From contig DASQJL010000076.1 in NCBI GenBank assembly GCA_035631035.1, forward strand, positions 13,482 through 77,481: a DNA stretch of 64,000 nt. Reading direction: 5' to 3'. Shown here in pieces: positions 25,962 to 42,725 of this stretch. The notes under the pieces were generated by a model. The model saw only the letters and a program-made list of their open reading frames with translations. It was not told where the DNA came from and searched no databases. The translations under genes and the position numbers were made by a program. How positions within the stretch are numbered: position 1 is the first letter of the stretch; the number at the start of each line of letters is the position of its first letter. The stretch is from Candidatus Binatia bacterium (GTDB taxonomy: Bacteria > Eisenbacteria > RBG-16-71-46 > SZUA-252).

Positions 25962-26138
25962 ATGCCGTTGAGCGACGAGCTGCTGGAGATCCTGGTCTGT
26001 CCCCAATGCCGCGGAGACCTCGTGTACGATCGCGCCGCCGAGCGGCTGGTCTGCGCGCGCTGCCGTCTCCGGTACCCGATCGTGGACGACATTCCGGTCA
26101 TGCTGATCGAGGAAGCCGAGCGGATACCCGAGTCTTGA
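25962..26138 (+). CDS. Trm112/YcaR-family small zinc-ribbon-like protein (58 aa); absent from the ORF track because it is under 60 aa
   Basis: MPLSDELLEILVCPQCRGDLVYD…LVCARCRLRYPIVDDIPVMLIEEAE matches the Trm112p family. ATG lies 4 nt after the accA stop. Confidence 0.6.
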   Translation: MPLSDELLEILVCPQCRGDLVYDRAAERLVCARCRLRYPIVDDIPVMLIEEAERIPES

Positions 26139-29100
26139 GGCGTCCCGACCGCCGCACGGCGTCCTTCTTCGCACCCTTGCGCTCCGGCCCGGCGCTCCTG
26201 GCCGTGGCGTCCCTTCTGGTTCTCCTGCCGCCCGCTTCCAGGGTCGGCGCGCAGGTCCCGTCCGGGTTCTCCGAGGCGTCGTCCCCGGCGCCGGTTCCCA
26301 CCGTCGAAAACGCCTCCCCGACCGGATACCGCGTGCGCGTGCCGATCGGAGACGCCCAGACCGTTCGGGCGCGGATCGCGGGGTACGACCTGGCCGAGAT
26401 CCGCATTCCGGGCGGCGTGGCCGGCGGGGCGTGGGCCCAGCCCTCGCTTCCCACGCGGACGGTGCTCCTGCGAATTCCCTGGGGCGCCGAGCCGGTCGCG
26501 CGAGGAGCGTGGTCTTCCTTCCGCTCGCTGGGCTCGCTCGAGCCCGTTCCGGTGCCGCACCTCGTGACCGAGCCAAGTGTCCGGGACCGGACCGCTCCCG
26601 AGGCCGTCGCCGCGGCGATGCGGGGCGCGCCCTACCGCGCCCTCGGGGGCGGCGGGGAAGCCGCGGCGATCGCGGGGACGGCTCTCATGGCCGCCCGCGG
26701 CGAGCGCTATCTCGCGGTGACCCTCCGCCCGGTGACCTGGGACCCCGCGACGCGCGAGGCGCGGGTGGCCGACGCGATCGTCGTCGACGTCTCCTGGGAG
26801 ACGCCCGCGCGCGTCCTGCCCTCCGAGGGGCCCGCGGGCGCTGCCGGCGCGGCGCCGTCCGAGGGCGCCCTGCCGCTCGGCGTCGACGGAGCGGTCGGAC
26901 CCCGGTTCGCACAGCGCTTCGCGCGGGCCGCGACCGCCGGGCGCGCGGCCGCCGTGACGGGACCGCTCCGCGTCGACCCCTCGCGACCCTGGGTTCGCGT
27001 CGGGGTGGTCCGGCCGGGACTCTACCGGATCACCCCGGCCGCCCTCCTCAGCGCGGGCGTCAACACGGCCGGCATCGATCCGGCCACGTTCCGGCTCTTC
27101 CGCTCCCCGCCGGGCGATCTTCCCGAGAGCACCGACGTGGACGCGGGCCCCGATTCGCTCCGCGAATGCGCCATCACGGTCACGGGCGAAGGGGACGGCA
27201 CGTTCGACGCGGCCGACGCCATCTACTTCTACGGCACCGGGGAGAGCGGCTTCGGTTACGACCTGGCCGCCGGGGGCGGGCCCGAGTACCAGGAGACGCA
27301 GCGAACCGATCTGGAGCCGCTCTGGCTCACGTGGGGACCGGGCCCGGTGCCGACGCCGCCGCGCCGGATCGCGACCCGCGACGCCGCGCCCGTCTCCACC
27401 GGAGCGCCGCTCCTGACACAGGTGACCCATCGGGTCCACTTCGAGACCAATCGCTTTCCCAACTTCGACCTCTTCCAGCCCGGGCTCCGATGGGAGCGCT
27501 GGTTCATGAGCGTGCTCCCGCAGGGCGCGAGGCTCGCGTTCCCGATCACGCTGCCGGGAGCCGTGCCGGGGGGCGAGGTCTCGGCGCGGCTCCGGATGTG
27601 GGGCCAGGGCACGTCGACCGGGCACGCCGCGCGGCTCTGGTGGGACGGCGCGATCGTGGACACCGTGAGCTGGAATTTCCTCGCGGCGCGCGACCTGACC
27701 GCGTCGGGACTGCGCACCAACGGCGCGCGCGATACGGTGCAGGCCGAGGTGCCCGCGGTTGCGGGACGGACCGACCCCGAATACCTCGCCTGGTTCGAGG
27801 TCTCCTACCCGCGCGCGCTCACCGCCTCGTCGGACACGATCGCCTTCGCCGCGCCCGATTCGGTCCCCCCCGGACGCTACCGCTATGCGATCGCGGGAGT
27901 GAGCGACACCACAGCCGCCTGGCTCCTGGACCGCACCGATCCCGAAACGCCTGTGCGGCTCGCCGGCGGGACCTGGTCCGGAGCCGCGCCCGCGTTCACG
28001 CTCACCGTGGAGGACAGCGCGGGCGCCGGCTACCGGCCGCGCTATACGCTCGTCTCCACGTCGGGCGCCCCCAGCCCGTCGCTCCTGCGCTACGCGCCCG
28101 CCGCGGGTCCGCACGCGCTGGCGGACCTCCTCGATTCCGGGAACGCGGCCGATTACCTGATCGTCGCGCCGGCCGCCTTCCTCGCGCAGGCGGAGTCGCT
28201 CGCGTTCGACCGCGAGGCGCGGCTCCCCGGAGTCGCCGCTCCGCGCGCGGCCATCGCCACCACCGAGGCGATCGCCGCCCAGCTGGGCGGCGGACGGTCG
28301 GACCCGGTCGCCATCCGGAACCTCTTCGCCTTTGCCGAGCGCCATTGGGCCGCCGGACCGCTCTATGTCTGTCTCTTGGGGGACGCCTCCGACGATCCGA
28401 AGAACTATCAGATCATCTCGGCGCCCGATCTCGTGCCGACCTACAACGAGTACTGGGACGTGAGCCTCCTGCTCCAGTACATCTCGGACGACTTCTATGC
28501 CTTCCTCGACGGGCCGGGCGACCGGCTCTTCGATCTCGCGATCGGTCGGCTGCCCGCGCGCACGACCGAAGAGGCGCGCACCCTCGTGCGCGGCAAGAAC
28601 GCGGTCTACGAGCGGACGCAGGACTTCGATTGGTGGCGCGTGCGAGCGCTGCTCACGGCGGACGACGCCTGGAAATGGTCGGTCCCGAACACCAAGCGCG
28701 ACCCCGTCGGCGCCGACCACGTGACGCAGATGGAGCGGAAGGACGGATTCCATCTCCCGTTTCCCGTGCGCCGGGAGAAGGTCTACCTGAACGACTATCC
28801 CTTCGCGGATTCCACGAAGCAGTCGAAGCCGAAGGCCCGTGAGGCGTTCCTGGCCGCGGTGAACGCGGGGAACTGGCTCGCTGAGTTCGCCGGGCACGGC
28901 AACGAGAACTTCCTCGCCGACGAGCAAATGTTCCGCTCCCTCGACCTGAACCGCCTCACGAATGCCACGCGGCCTTCGATCTTCGGTTTCTTCTCCTGCA
29001 CGGTGGGGAAGTTCGACGACAACGTGCAGCAGGACGGGCTGGCCGAGCTCCTGCTGCGCTACCCCGGCGGCGGGTCGGTCGTCTCGCTGGCGGCGAGCCA

Positions 29101-40869: not shown

Positions 40870-42725
40870 TGCGGCGGGCGAGGAATATGGCCGCGTGCAT
40901 CGCGCTGCTCGCGGCGCTCCCGGCGGCGGCGCGAGCCTCCTCGGACGCGGGGCCCGCGCATCCTTCGGCCGAGTACCGGCTGCGCGCGGAAGGGCTTCCC
41001 GACTCGCTCCGCTCGGTGATCGAGGCGGGCGGCTCCGATTCCACGAGGCGCTGGAGCGGACCCGATCTGGAATCGGCCGCGCTCCGCCTGCGCGATTTCC
41101 TGGCGGGGAAGGGGGACGTCGCGGCCACGGTGCGGCTCGCGCTCACGCGGGGCGAGGGGAGCGCGCCGGGAGCGGCGCGCCTCGAGATCACGCGTCCCGG
41201 CGCGAGCGCCAAGGATGCCGCGGCGCCGGAAGCGGCGGCCAACCCCGCCGCGCTCGGGGCCGGCGCGGGACCCAGGATCCGCGTCGACGGCCCGTTGGCT
41301 CCCGCGCTCGCCGACTCGGCGGCGGCCGCCTACCGTGCCGCCAGCCGCGGGGCCGCTTCGGTCGACGGCGTGGCCGCTGGCCTCTCGGCCGCGCGCGACG
41401 TGCTGATCGAAGCGGGCTTCTACGCCGCTCAGGTGTCGCTCGACTCGCTGGAGCTGGGCTTGGGCGCGCCGCTCGCCCATCTCCTGCTGGCGCCGGGACC
41501 GCCCGCGACGTACGAAGGGATGGAGCTGCCCGGCGCCACGGCCACGCGTCCCGCGGCGGCGGCGCGCGTCGCGGGGCTGGACCACGGCGCGCGTCTCACG
41601 CCGGCCGTTCTCGGCCTCGCGCGCGAGCGCCTGGCCGCCTCGGGCCTCTTCCAGCAGGTGGGGACGCCGCGCCTGGTGACCGGAGCGCTGCCGGGGGGCG
41701 CCCGGGTCGTGATCCCCGTCGTGGAGGAGCGCTCGAGCCGTTTCGAGGGCGCGCTCGGGGTCGCGCGCGAGGGAGGCGTGACGGGGCTGCTCGATCTCGC
41801 CCTCGGCAACATCGCGGGGAGCGGAAGGTCGGCGGGTCTCCGATGGTTCGGGCCGGGCAACGGCCGCTCCGAATACGCCGCGCACTATCGGGAGCCCGCG
41901 CTCTTCGGGACCCGCGCCGATGCCTCGCTCGCGCTCGAGGCCCAGGTCGCCGACTCCCTCTTCACCCAGACGCGCTGGTCGGCCGAGATCGGTATCGCGC
42001 CCGCGGGCGCCGCGCGGGCCGCGCTCGCGCTCCAGAGAAGCGGGAGCACGTACTCGGGGCTCGCGCGCGGGTCCAGCGCCACCTGGTCGCTGAAAGCCGG
42101 CGGCAGCCTGGATCGGCTTCGGCCGCTCCTGAATCCGGTTCGCGGATTCCGCGCGGCGCTGACCGCCGAGGCGGGGCGCCGGTCCGACCGCGTTCCCGAG
42201 CTGCCTTCGGAGAGCCGCGGGCTCTTCCGCGGCAGGGCGTCCGCCGAGGGGGCGCTCGCGATCGCGCCGCGGCGGGTGCTCGCGGCCTCCGCCCACGCGG
42301 AGGGCTCGTTCCTTTCCGGCGGCGATTTCCCCGCCGAAGAGCTTTCGTTCGTCGGCGGCACCGAGGGGCTGCGCGGCCATCCCGACCGCGCGTTCGGCGG
42401 AAACCGGATCGCCACCTTCTCGCTCGAGCACCGCTGGATCACCGACGAGCGGGGGGGGCGTCTGTATCTCTTCGCCGATGCCGCGCGGCACGATTTCTCG
42501 GGCGGGCTGGCCGCCGGCACCGCAGCGCTCTCGTCCGCGGTCGCGTCGGGCGGTGCCGCTCCGTCGCTCGCCCGAACGGTGTTGAGCCCGGGCTGGGAGT
42601 TCGGATACGGTGCCGGGCTCAGGACGAGGATGGCGTCGGGCCTGGTGGGACTGGAGCTGGGCCTGGCGCCGGGAGAGCCGCTCCGGAGGGCGACGCTTCA
42701 CGTCCGCTACGCGAGCACCTGGTGA
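40869..42725 (+). CDS. Omp85-family outer-membrane protein with three POTRA domains (TamA/BamA-like), 618 aa
   Basis: POTRA-like modules (…[24 protein letters not shown]…) then a surface-antigen D15 barrel ([15 protein letters not shown]…[34 protein letters not shown]…LHVRYASTW terminal aromatic). Confidence 0.75.

What the first reader, a model, noticed from the sequence alone, without database searches (positions are those of the whole stretch)
26135..42725. T9SS-type secretion/outer-membrane island in a 70% GC genome, ending in a coupled TamB-like/Omp85 pair
Nine consecutive + strand genes, nearly all with signal peptides.
- First three: a C25 (PorU-like) peptidase with a T9SS C-terminal domain (CTD), a PorV-like barrel, and an M6 InhA-like protease with FG-GAP repeats and a CTD.
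- Next three: two overlapping paralogs of unknown function and an NHL propeller protein.
- Last two: a 1094-aa protein ending in a beta-signal-like Phe, and a 3-POTRA Omp85.
- Overlaps of TTGA, 23 nt, TAGGTG and ATGA suggest one or two operons.
- PorU-PorV synteny plus CTD cargo outside classical Bacteroidota, followed by uncharacterised conserved-looking envelope proteins, could be lineage-specific accessory T9SS components or a separate OM biogenesis module.
Basis: partly seen in the sequence, partly recalled or inferred. Interest (0 to 1): 0.7.

Follow-up and report, generated by a model that had tools for sequence, protein, structure and literature searches.

The report
PorU–PorV genes beside giant-barrel/Omp85 module
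Eight tightly packed envelope genes in a soil Eisenbacteria-type genome combine an ordinary type IX secretion sorting set (PorU, PorV, a protease cargo) with an unstudied but widespread trio: a propeller protein, a very large predicted outer-membrane barrel and its own BamA-like partner.

Summary
Corrections: there are eight genes in the interval, not nine; the g7/g8 junction is TGATG, not ATGA; and the 1094-aa protein (g7) is not TamB-like.

- **g1** is PorU, above NCBI's equivalog cutoff, with the Cys/His dyad and a type A C-terminal sorting domain (CTD).
- **g2** is a PorV-family barrel.
- **g3** is an M6-like metalloprotease with an intact HExxH, FG-GAP repeats and a CTD.
- **g4 and g5** are distant paralogs with no significant family match.
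- **g6** is an NHL propeller.
- **g7** models confidently as a huge outer-membrane (OM) beta-barrel of about 38-40 strands, with only generic barrel matches. SprA gives the longest structural alignment, with no sequence homology.
- **g8** is a BamA-like Omp85 with about three POTRA domains.

In 82 related loci, g6-g7-g8 are almost always adjacent. PorU-PorV-M6-g4/g5 precede them across Eisenbacteria and in single TA06 and Zixibacteria loci (plus L071, unnamed phylum). They are absent from the 5.5-10 kb of upstream flank available in KSB1, Latescibacterota, Calditrichaeota and other loci.

The locus is therefore composite: a known-type T9SS sorting set next to a separable, uncharacterised OM module. 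That module's barrel family has about 4,330 sequence clusters and no Pfam or NCBIfam model. T9SS core genes could not be checked genome-wide.

The parts
26135..30343 (+). g1: PorU-type T9SS sortase (1402 aa). It has a signal peptide, an N-terminal region resembling a gingipain prodomain, a C25 peptidase domain and a type A CTD.
   Evidence: - NF033707 T9SS_sortase scores 460.2 bits against a cutoff of 420; Peptidase_C25 has E 1.6e-60.
- P. gingivalis PorU 6za2 matches at E 6e-32, with the AGHG His and the SCTVG Cys aligned to PorU's AGHG and ATCDF.
- Residues 51-224 match the Kgp prodomain 5mun at E 5e-9.
- The isolated C-terminal tail scores 28.5 bits on TIGR04183 against a cutoff of 23.
30455..31438 (+). 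g2: PorV-family outer-membrane barrel (327 aa) with an AGGAGG ribosome-binding site upstream.
   Evidence: - NF033709 PorV/PorQ family scores 224.7 bits against a cutoff of 90.
- The PorV equivalog NF033710 scores 146.3, below its cutoff of 250.
- Pfam PorV scores 70 bits.
- F. johnsoniae PorV 6h3i_F matches at E 2e-17.
31452..34829 (+). g3: secreted M6-like zinc metalloprotease (1125 aa) with an FG-GAP propeller region and a type A CTD. It is a likely T9SS cargo.
   Evidence: - Peptidase_M6 scores 23.8 bits (cutoff 22); FG-GAP_3 scores 49.5.
- Por_Secre_tail scores 23.1, below its cutoff of 27.
- NF052323 scores 228, below its cutoff of 600.
- HEFGH is present, and HExGH is kept in 51 of 52 orthologs.
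- All 19 M6-like tails scanned match TIGR04183 at E <= 0.01.
34855..35718 (+). g4: envelope protein of unknown function (287 aa), paralog of g5. It has a signal peptide, an LLPGAG hydrophobic motif and a GGAGG ribosome-binding site upstream, and ends ...VGFEIRKQL.
   Evidence: - No Pfam or NCBIfam hit.
- BLASTP against g5 gives E 2e-10.
- The family HMM finds it only in loci that also hold PorU/PorV.
35696..36580 (+). g5: envelope protein of unknown function (294 aa), paralog of g4. It overlaps g4 by 23 nt and ends ...GRLYLTRSF.
   Evidence: - 235 homologs, with no functional name among the 120 listed.
- Weak DUF6677 (13 of 42 members) and DUF5683 (9 of 42 members) similarity.
- The AF2 model is poor (pLDDT 62.6): mostly helical with a C-terminal beta-hairpin.
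36592..37584 (+). g6: secreted NHL-repeat beta-propeller protein (330 aa). It is the first gene of the conserved trio.
   Evidence: - NHL scores 40 bits against a cutoff of 20.
- An NHL gene lies directly upstream of the g7 homolog in 71 of 72 loci with enough flank.
- NHL was confirmed by Pfam in KSB1, Latescibacterota, Calditrichaeota, Zixibacteria and L078 loci.
37585..40869 (+). g7: 1094-aa giant outer-membrane beta-barrel protein of an unannotated family. It has a signal peptide, a roughly 90-residue disordered linker, about 38-40 strands with two inserted small domains, and an invariant C-terminal Phe.
   Evidence: - No Pfam, NCBIfam or PDB sequence hit.
- AF2 gives pLDDT 83.7 and pTM 0.73.
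- The family has 4330 cluster-50 representatives, nearly all of the best 150 being about 1000-1230 aa, plus a few shorter, probably partial, entries.
40869..42725 (+). g8: BamA-like Omp85 paralog (618 aa) with about three POTRA domains. Its ATG overlaps the g7 stop by 1 nt (TGATG).
   Evidence: - Omp85 scores 42.8 bits against a cutoff of 24.
- The BamA equivalog TIGR03303 scores 24, below its cutoff of 297.
- The family profile matches BamA at E 6e-44 over POTRA3(part)-5 plus the start of the barrel. TamA reaches only 2e-17.
- The loop-6 motif GLRGH aligns with BamA's LRGY.
- The same 1-nt overlap is seen in L001 and L002.

Best explanation
The interval is a composite envelope locus made of two modules that Eisenbacteria keep side by side. 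They are probably co-transcribed.

**Module A (g1-g5): a T9SS sorting and attachment set.**
- PorV binds the C-terminal sorting domain (CTD) of cargo leaving the translocon.
- PorU, a Cys/His C25 sortase, removes the CTD and attaches the cargo.
- The M6-like metalloprotease g3 is a catalytically intact CTD cargo.
- g4 and g5 are lineage-specific, mostly helical envelope proteins that travel with PorU/PorV. Their role is unknown.

**Module B (g6-g8): an older, separable outer-membrane module.**
- g7 is a very large channel-forming barrel.
- g8 is a dedicated BamA-like Omp85 with about three POTRA domains, translationally coupled to g7. It most likely inserts g7 into the outer membrane or stays bound to it as a partner.
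- g6, a periplasmic NHL propeller, most likely docks on the POTRA domains or on the barrel, as BamB does on BamA.

**Shown versus inferred.** Shown: the protein identities, the predicted fold of g7, the separability of the two modules and the tight coupling of the genes. Inferred: what g7 transports, the roles of g6 and g8, and any physical link between modules A and B.
For: **Identities.**
- PorU, PorV, M6, NHL and Omp85 assignments.
- CTDs: 35 of 35 tails of PorU-like and M6-like orthologs match TIGR04183.
- HExGH is kept in 51 of 52 g3 orthologs.

**g7 fold.**
- AF2 gives pLDDT 83.7 and pTM 0.73, with about 40 long strands.
- The Foldseek top hit is SprA at E 4e-8.
- The C-terminal Phe is invariant across the family.

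**Modularity.**
- g6 lies upstream of g7 in 71 of 72 loci. g8 lies downstream in 55 of 60 by HMM, or 59 of 60 when tblastn is added.
- PorU, PorV, M6 and g4/g5 were found in every Eisenbacteria-labelled locus with enough flank except that two lack M6. They are also in TA06 L046, Zixibacteria L053 and L071.
- They are missing in L044, L059, L069, L072, L075, L078, L080 and L081. There the trio follows unrelated genes such as rpsB-tsf-pyrH-frr, GGDEF/glycogen synthase, or a sigma-54 regulator.

**Coupling.**
- The TGATG junction is also present in L001 and L002. Gaps between g2 and g8 are at most 25 nt.

**Precedent.**
- T9SS genes (porG, skpA) sit at the bamA locus of F. johnsoniae (PMC12611786).
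Against: - No experiment bears on any of these proteins, and no cultured member was identified.
- Gene order in Eisenbacteria is conserved beyond the cluster: ligA, a helicase and the hut genes follow in L001 and L002. Within-phylum synteny is therefore weak evidence for a functional link.
- The strand count and barrel closure of g7 rest on a DSSP summary. No coordinates were available.
- One lineage (TA06 L046) has nadB instead of the Omp85 after g7, so g8 is not strictly obligatory in cis.
- Whether the genome holds a separate canonical BamA, an SprA or PorKLMN is unknown.
- PorV-PorU adjacency to the trio in at least three phyla could instead mean a real functional link, which is the rival reading.
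Confidence: 0.6

Rival explanations
1. All eight genes form one functional unit. g7 is an SprA-sized alternative or auxiliary T9SS-type translocon that hands CTD cargo to the PorV/PorU encoded beside it. g8 and g6 assemble or gate it.
For: - Adjacency of PorU-PorV-cargo with g6-g8 is kept across Eisenbacteria down to about 30% g7 identity. It also holds in TA06, Zixibacteria and L071.
- A barrel of about 38-40 strands would be wide enough for folded proteins.
- A CTD protein lies 5 kb upstream of the trio in L080.
Against: - The trio occurs without PorU, PorV, M6 or g4/g5 in the 5.5-10 kb upstream in at least eight other lineages.
- There is no sequence similarity to SprA: the PDB profile search gives nothing at E <= 1.
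- BtuB, SlpA and MtrB score about as well as SprA in Foldseek, so the match is generic.
- No Omp85 is known in any T9SS.
- SprA itself is reported across FCB phyla (PMC12611786).
Confidence: 0.2
2. g7/g8 is a TamB/TamA-type translocation and assembly module. g7 would be a periplasm-spanning lipid or protein conduit docked on the Omp85.
For: - An Omp85 with about three POTRA domains is translationally coupled to a protein of about 1100 aa with an N-terminal hydrophobic helix and an all-beta body.
Against: - No DUF490 or AsmA family hit for g7, and none among 40 family members scanned at E <= 1.
- g7 ends in an invariant OMP-type C-terminal Phe.
- The g8 profile matches BamA far better than TamA, 6e-44 against 2e-17.
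Confidence: 0.04
3. Module B has nothing to do with secretion. g7 would be a large structural or uptake outer-membrane protein (an abundant SlpA-like barrel or a giant porin). g8 would be its dedicated assembly factor, and the neighbourhood with PorU/PorV would be historical accident.
For: - The trio sits among housekeeping genes, for example after rpsB-tsf-pyrH-frr in KSB1.
- The family is very widespread, with 4330 clusters.
Against: - g7 has no SLH or peptidoglycan-binding domain.
- Conservation is concentrated in the N-terminal third and its inserted domains and acidic loops, not in the barrel wall. That points to a specific interaction or activity.
- The fixed pairing with a propeller protein is unexplained by this reading.
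Confidence: 0.15

Closest known systems
T9SS attachment complex genes porU-porV of Bacteroidota (P. gingivalis PorU 6za2; F. johnsoniae PorV 6h3i_F)
   Same: - porU and porV are adjacent.
- g1 has a C25 sortase domain with aligned His and Cys, and carries a CTD itself.
- g2 is a PorV-family barrel.
- A CTD-bearing protease cargo is encoded next to them.
   Different: - The host is an Eisenbacteria-type FCB lineage.
- g1 has an extra N-terminal region of about 280 aa that resembles a gingipain prodomain.
- g2 is below the PorV equivalog cutoff, 146 against 250.
- No porZ or porQ lies nearby.
- Five further genes follow in the same array.
NCBIfam trio NF052323 / NF052324 / NF052325 (T9SS-dependent M6-like inactivated metalloprotease, PorU2, PorV2)
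   Same: - An M6-like CTD protein is encoded with a PorU-like and a PorV-like gene.
- g3 matches NF052323 at 228 bits. 30 of 35 scanned tails match its C-terminal region.
   Different: - g3 is below the cutoff of 600 and keeps HExxH, as do 51 of 52 orthologs, so it is not the inactivated form.
- g1 fits canonical PorU (460 bits), not PorU2 (80 bits against a cutoff of 450).
- g2 fits PorV/PorQ, not PorV2 (33 bits against a cutoff of 325).
- That the three NCBIfam models describe one gene neighbourhood is my inference from their names and consecutive numbers.
BAM complex (BamA with the beta-propeller lipoprotein BamB) and BamA paralogs such as TamA
   Same: - g8 has an Omp85 barrel, POTRA domains alignable to BamA POTRA3-5, and the loop-6 RG(Y/H) motif.
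- A beta-propeller protein (g6) is encoded with it.
- g7, a barrel with an OMP-type C-terminal signal, is the obvious client.
   Different: - g8 has about 3 rather than 5 POTRA domains and is far below the BamA equivalog cutoff, 24 against 297.
- g6 is a six-bladed-type NHL protein with no lipobox, not a PQQ-type BamB.
- The pairing with one specific giant barrel gene is not a feature of BAM or TAM.
SprA/Sov, the 36-strand T9SS translocon (6h3i, 8gl6)
   Same: - Both are very large single-chain OM barrels.
- g7 is encoded next to PorV in Eisenbacteria.
   Different: - g7 is 1094 aa against about 2400 aa for SprA, so it lacks SprA's large extracellular cap.
- No SprA HMM or sequence match.
- TM-scores are low (0.28), and generic barrels score similarly.

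Membership tests
T9SS sortase PorU (NF033707) | Full-length equivalog HMM score above NCBI's cutoff | tested here: met
   460.2 bits against a cutoff of 420, over residues 284-1388.
T9SS sortase PorU (NF033707) | C25 peptidase domain with the catalytic His/Cys dyad | tested here: met
   Peptidase_C25 E 1.6e-60. In the alignment to PorU 6za2, AGHG and SCTVG align with PorU's AGHG and ATCDF.
T9SS sortase PorU (NF033707) | Own type A C-terminal sorting domain | tested here: met
   The isolated tail scores 28.5 bits on TIGR04183 against a cutoff of 23. All 16 PorU-like tails scanned match.
PorV (T9SS outer-membrane shuttle) | PorV/PorQ family HMM above cutoff and similarity to solved PorV | tested here: met
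   NF033709 scores 224.7 against a cutoff of 90. 6h3i_F matches at E 2e-17.
PorV (T9SS outer-membrane shuttle) | PorV equivalog model NF033710 above cutoff | tested here: not met
   146.3 bits against a cutoff of 250. The gene is called PorV-family by HMM and by its position next to PorU, not as an equivalog.
Complete type IX secretion system | Core genes porK/L/M/N (gldK-N) and sprA/sov in the same genome | not testable with these tools
   None in the 64-kb window or in the 4.2 kb recovered beyond its right end (L083; the left look-up L084 added nothing new). The rest of the genome could not be reached. SprA is reported as FCB-wide in PMC12611786.
Peptidase M6 (InhA-like) | HExxH zinc site and M6 catalytic-domain HMM | tested here: met
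   HEFGH is present and HExGH is kept in 51 of 52 orthologs. PF05547 scores 23.8 against a cutoff of 22, which is marginal. TIGR03296 scores 47.7, below its cutoff of 110.8.
T9SS-dependent M6-like inactivated metalloprotease (NF052323) | Equivalog score above cutoff and loss of the catalytic motif | tested here: not met
   228.4 bits against a cutoff of 600, and the catalytic motif is intact.
TamB / AsmA-like | DUF490 or AsmA-type domain | tested here: not met
   No Pfam or NCBIfam hit for g7 at E <= 0.01. None among 40 family members at E <= 1.
TamB / AsmA-like | Open beta-taco (groove) fold spanning the periplasm | tested here: not met
Omp85 superfamily (BamA/TamA-like) | 16-strand Omp85 barrel domain HMM plus POTRA domains | tested here: met
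   PF01103 scores 42.8 against a cutoff of 24. The family profile matches BamA at E 6e-44 across POTRA3(part)-5 and the start of the barrel. A Pfam POTRA hit is present in the KSB1 ortholog.
BamA proper (TIGR03303) | Equivalog score above cutoff and five POTRA domains | tested here: not met
   24.2 bits against a cutoff of 297. There is room for only about three POTRA domains in the roughly 260 residues before the barrel.
SprA/Sov translocon | SprA family HMM or sequence similarity, and a length of about 2400 aa | tested here: not met
   No SprA-family hit. The g7 profile finds nothing in the PDB, SprA included, at E <= 1. g7 is 1094 aa.
SprA/Sov translocon | Single closed barrel of 36 strands | tested here: inconclusive
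NHL-repeat beta-propeller | NHL repeat HMM above cutoff | tested here: met
   PF01436 scores 40 against a cutoff of 20 for g6. Orthologs score 41-120 bits.

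The most novel reading that the evidence does not exclude
g7 may define a new class of giant single-chain outer-membrane translocon of about 38-40 strands. That is as large as or larger than SprA, the largest barrel solved. It would be built or gated by its own BamA-like Omp85 and an NHL propeller. 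In Eisenbacteria, TA06 and Zixibacteria it would be wired directly to PorV/PorU as a compact secretion-and-attachment pathway for folded CTD proteins.
Probability: 0.15. Interest if true: 0.85.

Novelty: new variant of a known kind. Interest (0 to 1): 0.55.

Why it matters
The T9SS half of the locus is routine.

The other half is not. It points to a three-gene outer-membrane module with no Pfam or NCBIfam model and no paper found in a limited full-text search. Its barrel family has about 4,330 clusters at 50% identity. It was seen in 338 GTDB species representatives, across Eisenbacteria, KSB1, Zixibacteria, Calditrichaeota, Latescibacterota and TA06.

The module pairs one of the largest predicted single-chain barrels with a private BamA paralog. 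That bears on two open questions:
- how very large barrels get inserted into the outer membrane;
- what Omp85 paralogs other than BamA and TamA do.

If g7 proves to be a translocon, it would be a second route for folded proteins across the FCB outer membrane.

Tried and rejected
- **afdb50 fold search.** The library was not available.
- **g5 structure.** Confidence was too low (pLDDT 62.6, pTM 0.37), so it was not fold-searched.
- **Direct BLAST of the g1 and g3 tails.** It shows no similarity. The CTD call rests instead on HMM hits across 35 ortholog tails.
- **Literature.** Searches for Eisenbacteria or other candidate phyla together with T9SS, for PorU2/PorV2, and for barrels above 36 strands gave nothing specific. 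One preprint mentions a predicted family with at least 38 strands, but its source reference was not retrievable.
- **First synteny count.** One search was wrong because it used stop-to-stop ORF coordinates in high-GC DNA. It was redone with HMM envelope coordinates.
- **Compositional island.** Not supported.
- **RNA genes.** None in the window.
- **Promoter and terminator scan.** Nothing above shuffle expectation.

Full report
**1. What is in the sequence**

The window has about 70% GC, so raw ORF lists are full of spurious frames. A third-position GC frame plot and start-codon inspection resolve eight consecutive + strand genes in 26135-42725:
- g1 26135-30343
- g2 30455-31438
- g3 31452-34829
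- g4 34855-35718
- g5 35696-36580
- g6 36592-37584
- g7 37585-40869
- g8 40869-42725

The only candidate ninth is a 58-aa Trm112p-like ORF at 25962-26138 (Pfam E 3.7e-15).

Junctions read directly from the sequence:

| Junction | Spacing |
|---|---|
| g1/g2 | 111-nt gap, AGGAGG before g2 |
| g2/g3 | 13 nt |
| g3/g4 | 25 nt, GGAGG before g4 |
| g4/g5 | 23-nt overlap |
| g5/g6 | 11 nt |
| g6/g7 | TAGGTG, abutting |
| g7/g8 | TGATG, 1-nt overlap (not ATGA) |

All eight proteins begin with a basic segment, then a hydrophobic segment, then an Ala-rich segment typical of signal peptides. I judged this by eye; no predictor was available.

Composition is the same as in the flanks. The neighbours are housekeeping genes:
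- Upstream: PBP1A, dnaE and accA.
- Downstream: ligA, a DinG-like helicase, hutH/U/I and FTCD, then type IV pilus genes.

The locus is therefore not a compositional or mobile island. Every gene called from about 18.2 kb to the window end is on the + strand, so co-orientation alone means little.

**2. Origin**

The g7 protein is identical to an NCBI MAG protein labelled 'Candidatus Binatia bacterium'. The closest genomic relative (92% identity) and most of the related genomes listed are labelled Candidatus Eisenbacteria. Labels on this MAG series vary widely. I treat the organism as an Eisenbacteria-type member of the FCB superphylum.

**3. The T9SS part (g1-g3)**

*g1* passes NCBI's PorU equivalog model (460 bits, cutoff 420). 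It has a C25 domain (E 1.6e-60). It aligns to P. gingivalis PorU (6za2, E 6e-32), with the active-site His and Cys in register. Residues 51-224 resemble the Kgp gingipain prodomain (5mun, E 5e-9).

*g2* passes the PorV/PorQ family model (225 bits, cutoff 90) and matches solved PorV (E 2e-17). It falls below the strict PorV equivalog cutoff.

*g3* is M6-like with FG-GAP repeats. It is not the 'inactivated' NF052323 type: it scores 228 against a cutoff of 600, and HExGH is kept in 51 of 52 orthologs.

In whole-protein scans the CTD hits of g1 and g3 sit just under threshold. Scanned as isolated tails, all 35 PorU-like and M6-like C-termini from the window and 20 loci match TIGR04183 (E <= 0.01). 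The g1 tail passes the cutoff, 28.5 against 23.

T9SS components outside Bacteroidota are not new. The literature calls SprA FCB-specific (PMC12611786).

**4. g4 and g5**

They are distant paralogs (E 2e-10, 23% identity) with no significant family hit. Some members show weak DUF6677 or DUF5683 similarity through the LLPGAG hydrophobic motif.

The AF2 model of g5 is poor: helical, with a C-terminal hairpin. Their C-termini (...VGFEIRKQL and ...GRLYLTRSF) resemble that of g7 (...GRFELRSSF). I note this without claiming significance.

**5. g7**

g7 has no Pfam, NCBIfam or PDB sequence match, alone or as a profile. Among 40 family members, only a small inserted beta-sandwich weakly hits DUF2460, in 5 of them.

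AF2 with a 56-sequence alignment gives pLDDT 83.7 and pTM 0.73. The model has:
- an N-terminal helix, which is the signal peptide;
- a disordered stretch to about residue 120;
- by my count of the DSSP elements, about 38-40 long strands from 124 to 1093;
- two non-barrel insertions, at about 252-317 and 363-468.

g7 is therefore a giant OM barrel of a new family, not TamB-like. I could not inspect coordinates, so closure and the exact strand number are unverified.

Conservation is concentrated in the N-terminal third and in acidic loops (SDQxLPFEPDGxTRELEDLDR; DRNxLSSLDDGDN), plus the invariant C-terminal Phe.

The family is large:
- 4330 cluster-50 representatives at E <= 1e-3; nearly all of the best 150 are about 1000-1230 aa, with a few shorter, probably partial, entries.
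- 338 GTDB species representatives.
- No functional name in any listed entry; one source calls a member 'DUF2460 domain-containing'.

**6. g8 and g6**

g8 has an Omp85 barrel. A profile of 16 orthologs matches BamA at E 6e-44, from mid-POTRA3 through POTRA5 into the barrel. TamA reaches only 2e-17. The loop-6 motif is present. It is far below the BamA equivalog cutoff and has room for only about three POTRA domains. It is a BamA-like paralog.

g6 is an NHL propeller.

**7. Comparative genomics**

I compared the window's proteins with 82 related loci by tblastn and by jackhmmer on six-frame ORFs. Counts are for loci with enough flank:

| Gene(s) | Position relative to g7 homolog | Loci |
|---|---|---|
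| NHL (g6) | directly upstream | 71 of 72 |
| Omp85 (g8) | directly downstream | 55 of 60 by HMM, 59 of 60 with tblastn |
| g4/g5 | upstream | 56 of 64 |
| M6 (g3) | upstream | 51 of 58 |
| PorV (g2) | upstream | 50 of 54 |
| PorU (g1) | upstream | 46 of 50 |

The single exception for g8 is TA06 L046, where nadB follows g7.

Every locus lacking PorU, PorV or g4/g5 is non-Eisenbacteria. These include Latescibacterota L044, Calditrichaeota L059, KSB1 L072, and L069, L075, L078, L080 and L081. There the trio follows unrelated genes:
- rpsB-tsf-pyrH-frr
- a glycosyltransferase and sugar enzymes
- GGDEF and glycogen synthase
- a sigma-54 regulator and an AIR-synthase-like gene

The g4/g5 HMM finds nothing in those loci.

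The complete A+B arrangement recurs outside Eisenbacteria in TA06 (L046), Zixibacteria (L053) and L071. In L053 an extra 1028-aa gene sits between the two g4/g5-like genes. It combines Peptidase_MA_2, PD40 and a weak Omp85 domain.

The 1-nt g7/g8 overlap is also present in L001 (g7 32% identical) and L002 (55% identical).

One caveat: in Eisenbacteria the synteny extends to ligA, the helicase and hut. Within-phylum order is thus weak evidence for function. The cross-phylum pattern is what carries weight.

**8. Interpretation**

The best-supported reading is a composite locus.
- *Module A (g1-g5)* is a T9SS sorting set plus lineage-specific companions.
- *Module B (g6-g8)* is a separable, ancient and widespread OM module.

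My preferred mechanism for module B is as follows. g8 is a dedicated insertase or standing partner for the giant barrel g7. g6 acts as a periplasmic accessory, by analogy with BamB on BamA. This mechanism is inferred, not shown.

A real functional link between the two modules, with g7 as a T9SS-type translocon, is not excluded. I give it about 0.15-0.2.

**9. Limits**

I therefore could not test for porKLMN, sprA, a canonical bamA or tamB. The window and 4.2 kb more sequence beyond its right end (L083) contain none of them.

**10. Verdict**

- The T9SS assignment is right but ordinary.
- 'TamB-like' is wrong.
- The interesting content is the uncharacterised NHL / giant barrel / Omp85 trio.

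Noticed in passing
window 25962-26138 (+): A 58-aa Trm112p-like zinc-ribbon ORF (Pfam E 3.7e-15) lies between accA and porU. Its TGA stop overlaps the TTG start of g1 (TTGA), which suggests read-through coupling of porU to upstream housekeeping genes.
   Followed up: partly
window 26285-26806 (g1 residues 51-224): The N-terminal extension of the PorU homolog resembles the Kgp gingipain prodomain (PDB 5mun, E 5.4e-9). P. gingivalis PorU did not align to this region.
   Followed up: no
L053 4504-7590 (Zixibacteria SM23_81): In the Zixibacteria version of the cluster, a 1028-aa gene is inserted between the g4-like and g5-like genes. It combines Peptidase_MA_2, PD40 propeller repeats and a weak C-terminal Omp85 domain (20.5 bits, cutoff 24).
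   Followed up: no
window g4, g5 and g7 C-termini (35692-35715, 36551-36577, 40840-40866): The three proteins end in similar beta-signal-like strings: ...VGFEIRKQL, ...GRLYLTRSF and ...GRFELRSSF. g4 and g5 are nevertheless predicted to be mostly helical with only a C-terminal hairpin.
   Followed up: no
window 1803-4499 (-): An 898-aa protein carries GreA/GreB domains only in its last 160 or so residues. The roughly 730-aa N-terminal extension has no Pfam match at E <= 0.001.
   Followed up: no
window 59364-63999 (+), continuing in L083: A type IV pilus cluster: PilB-like and PilT-like ATPases, a PilC-like T2SSF protein, a PilS/PilR-like two-component pair, then two N_methyl pilins beyond the window end.
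   Followed up: partly
window 16557-18155: A stretch of about 1.6 kb has no gene passing my coding-score filter. The frame I tried contains two stop codons, and there is no Rfam or tRNA hit there.
   Followed up: no
L046 13067-14701 (TA06 SM23_40): This is the only locus with enough flank where the g7 homolog is not followed by the Omp85 gene. A gene that looks like L-aspartate oxidase (nadB), judged from its translation only, follows instead. This g7 homolog also has an extra N-terminal copy of the small beta-sandwich motif.
   Followed up: partly
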